This document shows positions 8,925-20,267 of a DNA stretch of 64,000 nucleotides, one piece after another. The translations under genes and the position numbers were made by a program. A model generated the notes under the pieces. The model worked only from the letters and a program-made list of their open reading frames with translations. It did no database searches and was not told where the DNA came from. Within the stretch, counting starts at the first letter, position 1. The number at the start of each line of letters is the position of its first letter. The stretch comes from Escherichia coli (GTDB lineage Bacteria > Pseudomonadota > Gammaproteobacteria > Enterobacterales > Enterobacteriaceae): assembly GCF_003334355.1 (NCBI RefSeq), contig NZ_QOWP01000001.1, one strand, 5' to 3'.

Positions 8925-10524
<1,600 letters not shown>

Positions 10525-10733: not shown

Positions 10734-11711
10734 ATGCTTTTAGCTACGGCACTGTTAATTGTTGGTTTACTTTTGGTCGTTTACAGTGCCGACCGCCTGG
10801 TTTTTGCCGCGTCTATTCTTTGCCGAACCTTTGGCATCCCGCCGCTGATCATCGGCATGACGGTGGTCAGTATTGGTACATCGTTACCAGAAGTCATCGT
10901 CTCGCTTGCCGCGTCTCTGCACGAACAACGCGATTTAGCCGTTGGTACAGCCCTCGGCTCAAACATTATCAATATATTGCTGATCCTCGGTCTGGCTGCG
11001 CTGGTTCGTCCTTTTACCGTCCATTCTGATGTTCTACGCCGTGAATTACCCTTAATGTTGTTGGTCAGCGTGGTGGCCGGTTCCGTACTCTATGACGGAC
11101 AACTTAGTCGCAGCGATGGTATCTTTCTCCTCTTTCTGGCTGTGCTATGGCTGCTGTTCATTGTTAAACTTGCACGTCAGGCTGAACGTCAGGGGACTGA
11201 CAGCCTGACCAGAGAGCAGCTTGCAGAGCTGCCGCGTGACGGCGGATTGCCCGTCGCGTTTTTATGGCTCGGCATTGCGCTTATCATCATGCCAGTGGCC
11301 ACGCGGATGGTGGTTGATAACGCCACGGTGCTGGCGAATTACTTTGCCATCAGCGAGTTGACGATGGGTCTGACGGCAATTGCTATCGGAACCAGCCTGC
11401 CGGAACTGGCAACCGCAATAGCGGGGGTTCGCAAAGGTGAAAACGACATTGCTGTCGGAAATATCATTGGCGCAAACATTTTTAATATTGTCATCGTGTT
11501 GGGTTTACCCGCGCTGATAACGCCAGGAGAGATTGATCCACTGGCGTACAGTCGTGACTACAGCGTGATGTTGCTGGTGAGCATTATTTTTGCGTTGCTG
11601 TGCTGGCGGCGCTCCCCGCAACCGGGCCGTGGTGTAGGGGTATTATTAACTGGCGGATTTATCGTATGGCTGGCGATGTTGTACTGGTTATCGCCAATAC
11701 TCGTTGAATAA
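10734..11711 (+). CDS. yrbG: Inner membrane cation/Ca2+ exchanger-family protein
   Basis: 325-aa polytopic ORF with duplicated GTSLPE motifs typical of the CaCA family; divergent from mlaF. Confidence 0.9.
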   Translation: MLLATALLIVGLLLVVYSADRLVFAASILCRTFGIPPLIIGMTVVSIGTSLPEVIVSLAASLHEQRDLAVGTALGSNIINILLILGLAALVRPFTVHSDVLRRELPLMLLVSVVAGSVLYDGQLSRSDGIFLLFLAVLWLLFIVKLARQAERQGTDSLTREQLAELPRDGGLPVAFLWLGIALIIMPVATRMVVDNATVLANYFAISELTMGLTAIAIGTSLPELATAIAGVRKGENDIAVGNIIGANIFNIVIVLGLPALITPGEIDPLAYSRDYSVMLLVSIIFALLCWRRSPQPGRGVGVLLTGGFIVWLAMLYWLSPILVE

Positions 11712-17573: not shown

Positions 17574-18428
17574 ATGGTACTGATGATCGTCAGCGGACGT
17601 TCAGGTTCAGGTAAATCTGTCGCCCTGCGTGCGCTGGAAGATATGGGTTTTTACTGCGTGGATAACCTTCCCGTAGTGTTGTTACCCGATCTGGCTCGAA
17701 CCCTGGCCGATCGCGAGATTTCTGCCGCCGTCAGCATTGATGTTCGTAATATGCCGGAGTCACCAGAAATATTCGAACAGGCGATGAGTAACCTGCCTGA
17801 CGCTTTCTCACCGCAACTACTGTTCCTGGATGCCGACCGTAATACCTTAATTCGTCGTTACAGTGACACGCGCCGACTGCATCCGCTTTCCAGCAAAAAC
17901 CTGTCGCTGGAAAGTGCTATCGACAAAGAAAGCGATCTGCTGGAGCCTCTGCGTTCGCGAGCGGATCTGATTGTCGATACCTCAGAAATGTCCGTTCACG
18001 AGCTGGCTGAAATGCTGCGTACCCGTCTGCTGGGTAAACGTGAACGCGAACTGACAATGGTCTTTGAGTCTTTCGGCTTCAAACACGGTATCCCTATCGA
18101 TGCAGATTACGTCTTTGACGTGCGCTTCTTGCCGAACCCGCACTGGGATCCGAAACTGCGTCCAATGACAGGTCTTGATAAGCCTGTCGCCGCGTTCCTC
18201 GACCGCCACACAGAAGTACACAATTTTATCTACCAGACGCGAAGCTATCTTGAGCTATGGTTACCTATGCTGGAAACCAACAACCGTAGCTACCTGACGG
18301 TCGCCATTGGTTGTACCGGCGGGAAGCACCGTTCGGTGTATATTGCAGAGCAACTGGCTGACTACTTCCGCTCGCGCGGTAAAAACGTCCAGTCACGCCA
18401 TCGTACGCTGGAAAAACGTAAACCATGA
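17574..18428 (+). CDS. rapZ: RNase adaptor protein RapZ (YhbJ)
   Basis: 284-aa [36 protein letters not shown]... with P-loop. Confidence 0.95.
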
Positions 18429-18697
18429 CCGTCAAGCAAACTGTTGAAATCACAAACAAGCTGGGCATGCATGCCCGGCCTGCAATGAAGCTGTTTGAAT
18501 TAATGCAGGGTTTTGACGCTGAAGTGCTGTTACGTAATGACGAAGGCACCGAGGCTGAAGCCAACAGCGTTATTGCGCTGCTGATGTTGGATTCTGCCAA
18601 AGGACGGCAGATTGAAGTTGAAGCGACCGGTCCACAAGAAGAGGAAGCACTGGCCGCCGTTATCGCCCTCTTTAACTCTGGTTTTGATGAAGATTAA
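18425..18697 (+). CDS. npr: HPr-like phosphocarrier NPr
   Basis: 90-aa [28 protein letters not shown]...; overlaps rapZ stop by 4 nt. Confidence 0.93.
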
Positions 18698-18842
18698 TCT
18701 TCATCACTTTGACATTCAAATCCCTTCAAGCTCCCCCGGCAATAAGAAAAGCGCGTACTGAAATCGTTCTCAATCAACGTCATTTGTACATTTTGTGCGC
18801 TTTTCACTTTCAGAAGAACCTTAAGAAAACCTTAAGAAGCAT

Positions 18843-18859
18843 TGTTTAGGTTTTGTTTA
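18843..18859 (+). promoter_or_regulatory. PhoP box (direct repeat TGTTTA-N5-TGTTTA) upstream of yrbL
   Basis: Read directly: tgtttaggttttgttta, about 50 nt upstream of the yrbL start; yrbL is remembered as a PhoPQ regulon member. Confidence 0.75.
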
Positions 18860-18909
18860 AGTTAATCGACCATACTGGAGATCGTCAGAAAATATTTCCA
18901 GGAGATGGC

Positions 18910-19542
18910 ATGATTCGCTTATCTGAACAAAGTCCCCTGGGCACCGGAAGACATCGGAAATGTTATGCGCATCCGGAAGATGCCCAACGCTGTATCAAGA
19001 TTGTCTACCATCGTGGCGATGGTGGCGATAAAGAGATCCGCCGTGAGTTAAAGTATTACGCGCATCTTGGTCGTCGGTTAAAAGACTGGAGTGGAATACC
19101 GCGCTATCACGGTACCGTTGAGACGGATTGCGGAACCGGTTATGTCTACGATGTGATTGCCGATTTCGACGGCAAGCCCTCCATTACGCTGACCGAATTT
19201 GCTGAACAATGCCGTTACGAAGAAGACGTTGCACAACTGCGCCAGTTACTGAAACAGCTGAAGCGTTATTTGCAGGATAACCGTATCGTGACGATGTCGC
19301 TGAAGCCGCAGAATATCCTCTGTCATCGCATCAGTGAGTCAGAGGTTATCCCCGTCGTCTGCGACAACATTGGTGAAAGCACATTGATTCCACTGGCAAC
19401 CTGGTCGAAGTGGTGTTGTCTGCGTAAGCAAGAGCGGTTATGGAAACGATTTATCGCCCAACCGGCGCTGGCTATTGCCCTGCAGAAAGATCTGCAACCT
19501 CGTGAGAGCAAAACGCTGGCCCTCACTTCGCGCGAAGCTTAA
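18910..19542 (+). CDS. yrbL: PhoP-regulated protein YrbL
   Basis: Track ORF trimmed to [42 protein letters not shown]... (210 aa). Confidence 0.85.
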
Positions 19543-20267
19543 TCCAGCTGGTGTTGTTGCATAAACGGCTCACCGCCTAACTGATACATCTGCCGTAAAA
19601 TCCACGCCTGACGGCTATGCACGTAGCCCGATGGCGCGGAGACTTTGAAACGACGTGGATTAGGTAATACAGCTGCCAGTAATGCAGCTTCCGATCGGGT
19701 AAGTTTGCTCGCGGGTTTGTGGAAATAACGTTGTGCCGCAGCTTCGACGCCAAACACACCGTCGCCAAATTCGGCGATATTCAGGTAAACCGTCAGGATA
19801 CGCTTTTTGCTCCAGACCGTTTCTATCCCCAGCGTTAATCCAGCTTCCAGCCCTTTTCGTACCCAGCTACGCCCATCCCATAAAAAGAGATTTTTGGCTG
19901 TCTGCTGAGAAATCGTTGATGCACCGCGAATACGGTTTTCATTGCGCTCGTTGTGCGCCAGGGCTTTCTCAATGGAAGCGACATCAAAGCCCCAGTGCTC
20001 AGGAAATTTCTGATCTTCTGCGGCAATCACCGCCAGTCCCATCCATGGCGAGATTTGATCCATACTGACCCAGTCAGAATGTGCCACGTAACGAAAATTG
20101 CCATGCAGCCAGGCGCTGACCTGTCGCTCGACCATTACCGCTGAGAAGGGAACAGGCGCAACGCTAAACAACGCGATGCCCCCGCCCCAGAAAACGGCGA
20201 GGACAACCATTAACCGCAAAAGAAAACGGCGAACGAAACTAAACACCGTTAAGCGGCTTTTACTCAT
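19539..20267 (-). CDS. mtgA: Monofunctional peptidoglycan glycosyltransferase
   Basis: 242-aa ORF with N-terminal TM anchor and transglycosylase motifs ([17 protein letters not shown]). Confidence 0.93.

What the first reader, a model, noticed from the sequence alone, without database searches (positions are those of the whole stretch)
18843..18859. Perfect PhoP box direct repeat upstream of yrbL
TGTTTA-GGTTT-TGTTTA matches the PhoP-binding direct repeat (hexamer, 5-nt spacer, hexamer) at the position expected for a PhoP-activated promoter. It supports the yrbL call and its Mg2+/PhoPQ regulation.
Basis: partly seen in the sequence, partly recalled or inferred. Interest (0 to 1): 0.25.

Follow-up and report, generated by a model that had tools for sequence, protein, structure and literature searches.

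The report
Known PhoP box of yrbL promoter
The repeat is real and is the already published binding site through which the magnesium-sensing regulator PhoP switches on the E. coli gene yrbL, so the finding is correct but ordinary.

Summary
The window is E. coli chromosome (rpoN-hpf-ptsN-rapZ-npr | yrbL | mtgA-elbB-arcB). TGTTTA-GGTTT-TGTTTA sits exactly at 18843-18859 on the + strand, 50 nt before the yrbL ATG (18910). It is the only exact match in 64 kb, against 0 of 100 shuffles. A weight matrix built from 37 published Salmonella PhoP boxes, yrbL excluded, ranks it first of about 128,000 positions: 22.8 bits, next hit 16.4, best training site 19.1. Eleven nt downstream lies an invariant -10 hexamer, CATACT, with no usable -35. 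This is the published "architecture I" (class II) PhoP promoter geometry, described for Salmonella yrbL with S1 start-site mapping. The identical 19-mer in Shigella flexneri was tested there by PhoP-P gel shift and lacZ assay, and yrbL mRNA falls to 0.02x in a phoPQ deletion. The box, the -10 and an adjacent PmrA/BasR box (CTTAAG-AAAAC-CTTAAG, 18820-18836, a known repressor site) are conserved islands across several enterobacterial genera. Verdict: observation confirmed, interpretation supported, already known. Minor additions: 62% of 5,426 E. coli genomes carry exactly this 33-nt box region, and two variants with CGTTTA as the second hexamer account for 38%. An invariant 20-bp block (18784-18803) upstream remains unexplained.

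The parts
18843..18859 (+). PhoP box: TGTTTA (18843-18848), spacer GGTTT, TGTTTA (18854-18859). It is a direct repeat in the same orientation as yrbL.
   Evidence: unique, 0/100 shuffles; top PWM hit at 22.8 bits; conserved at about -68 from the ATG in Escherichia, Citrobacter and Salmonella. Identical 19-mer studied in Shigella (PMC5775216).
18871..18876 (+). -10 hexamer CATACT, 11 nt downstream of the box. The corresponding -35 position (TAGGTT/AGGTTT, inside the box) is poor.
   Evidence: 6/6 columns invariant in 12 genomes. Same hexamer and same 11-nt distance are listed for Salmonella yrbL in PMC3335776 Tables 1-2. The sigma-70 consensus scan found no self-sufficient promoter in 18400-19700.
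18879..18884 (+). Inferred transcription start zone. 18879 follows by homology to the S1-mapped Salmonella start, 2 nt after the -10; 18883-18884 follows if the usual 6-7 nt spacing applies.
   Evidence: Inference from PMC3335776 Table 2 and the alignment. Not measured for this sequence.
18820..18836 (+). PmrA (BasR) box CTTAAG-AAAAC-CTTAAG, 6 nt upstream of the PhoP box. Reported repressor input.
   Evidence: the only match with up to 1 mismatch in the window; 14/17 columns invariant. PmrA box definition CTTAAG-N5-xTTAAT in PMC3973317. PmrA represses yrbL (PMC3335776, PMC4196223, PMC2681069). yrbL is down when basR/eptA/arn are up in iron-adapted E. coli B (PMC13405929).
18784..18803 (+). Invariant upstream block TTGTACATTTTGTGCGCTTT, function unknown. 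Candidate site for a further regulator.
   Evidence: 18/20 columns invariant against 0.53-0.61 majority fraction in the flanks. Also present in Pluralibacter, Siccibacter and a non-syntenic Enterobacter hormaechei yrbL copy. No Rfam match. Single copy in the window.
18900..18905 (+). Shine-Dalgarno AGGAGA, 4 nt before the ATG.
   Evidence: Read directly; conserved.
18910..19542 (+). yrbL coding sequence (210 aa, protein-kinase-like fold family PF10707).
   Evidence: PF10707 is grouped with protein-kinase-like families in PMC9758233.

Best explanation
18843-18859 is the operator for phosphorylated PhoP at the yrbL promoter. When PhoQ phosphorylates PhoP (low Mg2+, antimicrobial peptides, acid pH, osmotic upshift), a PhoP dimer binds the two TGTTTA half-sites head to tail. 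The site overlaps the place where a -35 hexamer would be, one helical turn (11 nt) upstream of the -10 hexamer CATACT, and so substitutes for the missing -35 by contacting RNA polymerase (class II activation). Transcription starts a few nt after the -10 and gives a leader of about 30 nt before the yrbL ATG. A PmrA/BasR box 6 nt upstream (18820-18836) lets the Fe3+/PmrD-activated regulator PmrA damp this activation. Shown here: the sequence, its statistical uniqueness, its matrix score, the geometry and the conservation. Taken from published experiments on orthologous or identical sequences: PhoP binding, PhoP and Mg2+ dependence, start site, PmrA repression. Inferred: the exact E. coli start site, the class II contact (demonstrated only for mgtA), and how PmrA represses.
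For: The exact motif is unique in the window, 0/100 shuffles. A PWM from 37 non-yrbL PhoP boxes ranks it first of about 128,000 positions, above every training site. CATACT lies 11 nt downstream and is invariant. No consensus sigma-70 promoter is found, consistent with activator dependence. Four conserved islands (upstream block, PmrA box, PhoP box, -10) are separated by variable linkers in 12 genomes. A PhoP-like box with a -10-like hexamer 11 nt downstream is also present in Siccibacter, an Erwinia sp. and a non-syntenic Enterobacter copy. In Salmonella yrbL the box is TCGTTTAGGTTTTGTTTAA, architecture I, -10 CATACT at 11 nt, with a single S1-mapped start that is active in wild type at low Mg2+ and absent in phoP. 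Shigella has the identical tTGTTTAggtttTGTTTAa, with a PhoP-P gel shift, a lacZ assay and 0.02x expression in a phoPQ deletion. K-12 MG1655 carries the same box, and E. coli yrbL reporters respond to PhoP.
Against: None is substantive. The published Salmonella start lies only 2 nt after the -10, which is unusually short, so either the -10 assignment or the mapped 5' end may be slightly off. About 38% of E. coli genomes have CGTTTA rather than TGTTTA in the second half-site, so perfection of the repeat is not required. The E. coli yrbL reporter saturates early and responds weakly to PhoP. I could not open the two primary E. coli papers, Minagawa 2003 and Zwir 2005. Their content is known to me only through citing papers and from memory.
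Confidence: 0.95

Rival explanations
1. The repeat is a chance T-rich sequence in an intergenic region with no regulatory role.
For: A perfect 12-base match is expected roughly once per two E. coli-sized genomes (my arithmetic). Loose matches are at chance level in the window.
Against: It occupies the same position in 12 genomes of three genera while the adjacent linkers vary. It keeps a fixed 11-nt distance to an invariant -10. Published binding and expression data exist for the identical sequence.
Confidence: 0.01
2. The direct repeat is mainly the target of a different OmpR/PhoB-family response regulator that recognises T-rich direct repeats with 11-bp periodicity, and PhoP dependence is indirect.
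For: Winged-helix response regulators share the hexamer-N5-hexamer layout; the PmrA box next door has the same layout.
Against: The half-sites are the PhoP consensus, and the site outscores all known PhoP boxes on a PhoP-only matrix. Purified PhoP-P shifted the Shigella yrbL promoter fragment carrying the identical sequence. The Salmonella box was defined in a study based on DNase footprinting.
Confidence: 0.02
3. The box is a genuine PhoP site, but in E. coli the output is dominated by PmrA/BasR repression and by the unexplained upstream block. PhoP would then be necessary but would contribute little to physiological control.
For: The PmrA box and the 18784-18803 block are at least as conserved as the PhoP box. 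yrbL is among the most down-regulated genes when basR is up. The E. coli yrbL reporter shows low sensitivity to PhoP level. Salmonella yrbL is the earliest but lowest expressed of 20 PhoP targets.
Against: yrbL falls to 0.02x in a Shigella phoPQ deletion, which is a large PhoP effect. This rival modifies rather than replaces the main explanation.
Confidence: 0.15

Closest known systems
Salmonella enterica yrbL promoter (architecture I PhoP-activated promoter; Zwir et al. 2012, PMC3335776)
   Same: Orthologous gene in the same npr-yrbL-mtgA context. Single direct-orientation box, the same spacer GGTTT, the same -10 CATACT and the same 11-nt box-to-(-10) distance. The PmrA box lies about 23-24 bp upstream.
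   Different: The first half-site is CGTTTA in the published Salmonella sequence and TGTTTA here. The two Salmonella genomes I fetched have TATTTA as the second half-site. The leader sequence differs.
Shigella flexneri 2a 301 yrbL PhoP box (Lin et al. 2018, PMC5775216)
   Same: Identical 19-mer tTGTTTAggtttTGTTTAa, supported there by EMSA with PhoP-P and by a lacZ fusion.
   Different: None at the level of the box.
phoP and mgtA promoters (canonical architecture I PhoP boxes)
   Same: (T/G)GTTTA-N5-(T/G)GTTTA in direct orientation overlapping the -35 region, with a weak -35.
   Different: Those boxes lie 12 nt from the -10 and yrbL lies 11 nt. They have no adjacent PmrA box, and mgtA has a long regulatory leader.
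pmrD promoter (PhoP-activated, PmrA-repressed 'bi-fan' motif)
   Same: A PhoP box plus an upstream PmrA box, giving activation by PhoP and repression by PmrA.
   Different: The PmrA-PhoP box distance is about 38 bp in Salmonella pmrD and 23 bp here. The yrbL product is not known to feed back on PmrA.

Membership tests
PhoP box (binding site of the PhoP response regulator) | Direct repeat (T/G)GTTTA-N5-(T/G)GTTTA | tested here: met
   Exact TGTTTA-GGTTT-TGTTTA at 18843-18859.
PhoP box (binding site of the PhoP response regulator) | Scores like known sites on a matrix built from independent, experimentally defined boxes | tested here: met
   22.8 bits, rank 1 of about 128,000 positions. Training sites range 2.2-19.1 bits; yrbL was excluded from training.
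PhoP box (binding site of the PhoP response regulator) | Physical binding of phosphorylated PhoP | not testable with these tools
   Literature only: EMSA on the Shigella yrbL promoter fragment with the identical 19-mer, and a Salmonella box set defined with DNase footprinting.
PhoP box (binding site of the PhoP response regulator) | Conservation at orthologous promoters | tested here: met
   GTTTA/TTTA cores are invariant or nearly so in 12 genomes, at -68/-69 from the ATG. The box is degenerate in Pluralibacter and Cedecea.
Architecture I / class II PhoP-activated promoter | Single box, direct orientation, 11-12 nt upstream of the -10 hexamer | tested here: met
   Box ends at 18859 and CATACT starts at 18871, a gap of 11 nt, identical to published Salmonella yrbL.
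Architecture I / class II PhoP-activated promoter | Box overlaps a poor -35, so the promoter depends on the activator | tested here: met
   The -35 position reads TAGGTT/AGGTTT. No consensus sigma-70 promoter was found in 18400-19700. Table 2 of PMC3335776 lists 4 mismatches for the Salmonella -35.
Architecture I / class II PhoP-activated promoter | Transcription start downstream of the box, dependent on PhoP and low Mg2+ | not testable with these tools
   S1 mapping exists in Salmonella. The E. coli start site is inferred by homology.
PmrA (BasR) box | CTTAAG-N5-xTTAA(T/G) direct repeat | tested here: met
   CTTAAG-AAAAC-CTTAAG at 18820-18836. Definition in PMC3973317. 14/17 columns invariant.
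PmrA (BasR) box | PmrA binding and repression of yrbL | not testable with these tools
   Stated in PMC3335776, PMC4196223 and PMC2681069, all citing Zwir 2005. The transcriptome anticorrelation is consistent with it.
YrbL (PF10707 / NF007671) | Full-length match above the curated cutoff, in the npr-yrbL-mtgA context | tested here: met
   398.9 bits against a cutoff of 227, residues 1-210 of 210. Synteny.

The most novel reading that the evidence does not exclude
The invariant 20-bp block TTGTACATTTTGTGCGCTTT (18784-18803) is the operator of a third regulator of yrbL, one not yet described. It lies about 80-95 nt upstream of the start and is more conserved than the PhoP box itself. It travels with yrbL even in a non-syntenic Enterobacter copy. 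If so, this 'simple' PhoP promoter would be a three-input switch. Separately, the T/C polymorphism in the second half-site, with three alleles at 62/16/22% of E. coli genomes, might tune PhoP sensitivity between lineages.
Probability: 0.25. Interest if true: 0.3.

Novelty: already known. Interest (0 to 1): 0.08.

Why it matters
It matters little for discovery. yrbL has been treated as a member of the E. coli Mg2+ stimulon since 2003, and its promoter is a reference example of the simplest PhoP promoter architecture. The check has value as calibration: a tool-free reader correctly identified a real regulatory site from sequence alone. The residual open points are small. What does the kinase-like YrbL protein do? 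What binds the invariant upstream block? Do the natural box alleles differ in PhoP affinity?

Tried and rejected
1. The loose consensus scan (KGTTTA-N5-KGTTTA, up to 2 mismatches) gave 13 hits against 12.7 expected, so it is uninformative.

2. The sigma-70 and terminator consensus scan of 18400-19700 found no promoter. I read this as consistent with activator dependence, not as evidence against a promoter.

3. The Rfam scan of 18400-19100 gave only a sub-threshold snoRNA hit (E = 0.29, 20 bits against a gathering score of 45), so there is no RNA element.

4. I tried to read the primary E. coli papers, Minagawa 2003 (PMC161583) and Zwir 2005 (PMC548500). Neither is held. PMC3140997 contains no PmrA box text.

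5. For the 18784-18803 block I compared by eye with consensus sites for sigma-70, sigma-54, CRP, FNR, RstA, CpxR, PhoB, EvgA, IHF, Fis and the MarA/SoxS/Rob marbox. None fits. The marbox GCAC...CAAA elements are present on the minus strand but one base too far apart. The first half resembles an OmpR a-site (TACATTTTG) but the second half does not. I also considered that the block is the npr terminator. I rejected this because Citrobacter, Siccibacter and Pluralibacter have a clear hairpin plus T-run terminator upstream of the block.

6. The genome-contig scan with the single protein reached only Escherichia, Citrobacter and Salmonella. More distant orthologues had to be fetched through the search for homologous proteins and the look-up of encoding contigs.

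7. The roughly 50%-identical homologues lie in a different genomic context and have no PhoP box. They say nothing about this promoter.

Full report
**Observation.** The window reads ...gaagcat TGTTTA GGTTT TGTTTA agttaatcgac CATACT ggagatcgtcagaaaatatttcc AGGAGA tggc ATG.... TGTTTANNNNNTGTTTA occurs once in the 64-kb window on both strands, and none of 100 dinucleotide-preserving shuffles produced a match. With the loose consensus and up to two mismatches the window has 13 hits against 12.7 expected, so only the perfect site is informative. By my own arithmetic a perfect 12-base match is expected about 0.008 times in this window but about 0.5 times in a whole E. coli genome. Position and conservation, not the match alone, therefore have to carry the argument.

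**Where we are.** Window 18300-19700 is 100% identical to E. coli ATCC 8739 and is found in all 5,426 complete E. coli genomes. The RefSeq annotation gives rpoN, hpf, ptsN, rapZ and npr on the + strand. Next comes yrbL at window 18910-19542, also on the + strand. mtgA, elbB and arcB follow on the - strand. The 210-aa product matches the NCBIfam equivalog 'PhoP regulatory network protein YrbL' over its full length (398.9 bits, cutoff 227). Its homologues carry PF10707, a family grouped with protein-kinase-like folds (PMC9758233). The yrbL call is therefore sound independently of the box.

**Is it a PhoP box?** I built a 19-column weight matrix from the 37 PhoP boxes of 22 other Salmonella promoters listed in Table 1 of PMC3335776, leaving yrbL out.
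- The site at 18842-18860 scores 22.8 bits and ranks first of about 128,000 positions.
- The runner-up scores 16.4 bits.
- No training site exceeds 19.1 bits.
- A matrix restricted to 16 activating direct-orientation boxes gives the same ranking.

**Is it where an activating PhoP box should be?**
- Eleven nt after the second half-site lies CATACT (18871-18876).
- The hexamer at the -35 position, TAGGTT/AGGTTT, is poor.
- The consensus scan finds no self-sufficient sigma-70 promoter anywhere in 18400-19700.

This is the geometry published for 'architecture I' PhoP promoters: a single box in direct orientation about one helical turn upstream of the -10, predicted to work by class II activation. 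yrbL is named there as the member with an 11-nt rather than 12-nt distance, -10 CATACT and -35 TAGGTT (PMC3335776). In that study a single S1-mapped start was found for Salmonella yrbL. It was active in wild type at 10 uM Mg2+ and absent in a phoP mutant. Applied to the orthologous promoter, it does not refute. By homology the E. coli start would be near 18879. If the usual 6-7 nt spacing holds it would be 18883-18884. This is inference.

**Direct experimental support on the same sequence.**
- Shigella flexneri 2a 301 carries the identical 19-mer tTGTTTAggtttTGTTTAa.
- The authors report a gel shift of its promoter fragment by PhoP-P and support from a beta-galactosidase assay.
- yrbL mRNA is 0.02x by microarray and 0.07x by qRT-PCR in a phoPQ deletion (PMC5775216).
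- K-12 MG1655 has the same box.
- E. coli work treats yrbL as a PhoP regulon member (PMC2789325; PMC5740661), and a yrbL reporter responds to PhoP (PMC13215669).
- From memory, Minagawa et al. 2003 established yrbL as a direct PhoP target in E. coli by S1, gel shift and footprinting. I could not open that paper or Zwir et al. 2005.

**Phylogenetic footprint.** I aligned the npr-yrbL spacer from six Escherichia lineages, four Citrobacter and one Salmonella with the window. Four conserved islands are separated by variable DNA.

| Segment | Coordinates | Invariant columns | Majority fraction |
|---|---|---|---|
| Upstream block | 18784-18803 | 18/20 | 0.96 |
| PmrA box | 18820-18836 | 14/17 | 0.90-1.00 |
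| PhoP half-site 1 | 18843-18848 | 4/6 | 0.90 |
| PhoP half-site 2 | 18854-18859 | 4/6 | 0.89 |
| -10 hexamer | 18871-18876 | 6/6 | 1.00 |
| Linkers and DNA upstream of the block | – | – | 0.53-0.69 |

More distant orthologues fetched through protein searches extend the picture.
- A PhoP-like box followed after 11 nt by CATACT or CATAAT is present in Siccibacter turicensis, an Erwinia sp. and a non-syntenic yrbL copy in Enterobacter hormaechei.
- In Pluralibacter gergoviae and Cedecea colo the box is degenerate.
- Homologues about 50% identical lie in a different context, directly after dnaE and beside lipopolysaccharide genes, and have no box.

**The neighbouring PmrA box.** CTTAAG-AAAAC-CTTAAG at 18820-18836 is the only match with up to one mismatch in the window. 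It fits the PmrA box definition, CTTAAG, 5 bp, xTTAAT (PMC3973317). The literature states that PmrA represses yrbL in E. coli and is predicted to do so in Salmonella. It also places the PmrA box about 24 bp from the PhoP box; here the start-to-start distance is 23 bp (PMC3335776, PMC2681069, PMC4196223). An independent 2026 transcriptome agrees: in iron-adapted E. coli B with basR, eptA and arn up, yrbL is among the most down-regulated genes (PMC13405929). The promoter is thus a two-input element, activated by PhoP and repressed by PmrA.

**Variation within E. coli.** Only 71 genomes are identical to the window over 18816-18880. Allele-specific 33-mers show three forms of the box:
- TGTTTA-GGTTT-TGTTTA in 3,343 of 5,426 genomes (62%)
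- TGTTTA-GGTTT-CGTTTA in 848 (16%)
- TGTTTA-GATTT-CGTTTA in 1,195 (22%)

A C at that position is common in functional boxes, so this does not argue against function. It does show that the 'perfect' repeat is an allele, not a requirement. In one strain, 2009C-3133, an IS1 element sits between the box and yrbL, with the break at about 18872 inside the -10.

**Unexplained.** The block TTGTACATTTTGTGCGCTTT (18784-18803) is the most conserved part of the spacer. It lies downstream of the npr terminator that is visible in Citrobacter, Siccibacter and Pluralibacter. It also accompanies yrbL in the non-syntenic Enterobacter copy. It has no Rfam match and no second copy in the window. I found no convincing match to the regulator consensus sequences I know. 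It may be a site for a further regulator.

**Verdict.** The feature is already known and well characterised in the literature, so interest is low. The small additions here are the allele frequencies, the depth of conservation, and the unexplained upstream block.

Noticed in passing
window 18784-18803: TTGTACATTTTGTGCGCTTT is invariant at 18 of 20 columns across Escherichia, Citrobacter and Salmonella, more conserved than the PhoP box. It is also kept in Pluralibacter, Siccibacter and a non-syntenic Enterobacter hormaechei yrbL copy. It lies between the npr terminator and the PmrA box. I found no match to any consensus I know or to Rfam.
   Followed up: partly
window 18820-18836: A perfect CTTAAG-AAAAC-CTTAAG PmrA/BasR box lies 6 nt upstream of the PhoP box. 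Both half-sites are palindromic, so the site is a direct and an inverted repeat at once. In Erwinia sp. and Cedecea the spacer is flipped (GTTTT). It is known from the literature as a repressor input to yrbL.
   Followed up: yes
window 18850 and 18854: The PhoP box is polymorphic within E. coli. The second half-site is TGTTTA in 62% and CGTTTA in 38% of 5,426 genomes, and the spacer is GGTTT or GATTT. The window's exact 65-nt promoter allele (18816-18880) occurs in only 71 genomes.
   Followed up: yes
L014 (E. coli 2009C-3133), equivalent to window ~18872: An IS1A element is inserted between the PhoP box and yrbL, breaking the promoter at the -10 hexamer. It probably uncouples yrbL from PhoP in that strain.
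   Followed up: partly
L019, L020, L021 (metagenome contigs), gene at 1501-2100: YrbL homologues about 50% identical sit 14-25 nt after dnaE. They lie next to Kdo-kinase-like, glycosyltransferase and Wzy_C (O-antigen ligase-like) genes, and L021 has a second YrbL paralogue. This hints that the kinase-like YrbL family acts on lipopolysaccharide or lipooligosaccharide.
   Followed up: no
L017 (Enterobacter hormaechei), gene at 1501-2079: A second, non-syntenic yrbL copy (61% identity) carries its own PhoP-like box CTGTTTAATGTCCATTTAA, a -10 CATAAT 11 nt downstream, and the upstream conserved block. Its PmrA box is only degenerate. The promoter module appears to have moved with the gene.
   Followed up: partly
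window 10752-10770: The second-best PhoP matrix hit, CTGTTAATTGTTGGTTTAC (16.4 bits), lies 18 nt inside the ORF 10734-11711. This is next to the divergent intergenic region with the ORF 9715-10524 on the minus strand. It is probably chance.
   Followed up: no
L013 (contig labelled Tannerella forsythia ATCC 43037, 420 bp): A 420-bp contig in a Bacteroidota assembly encodes a fragment 98% identical to E. coli YrbL. This is most likely E. coli contamination of that assembly.
   Followed up: no
window 18870-18876: The -10 hexamer CATACT is preceded by a C at -13 in every genome in the window's group. Such a C is favoured by sigma-S promoters. This was not tested.
   Followed up: no
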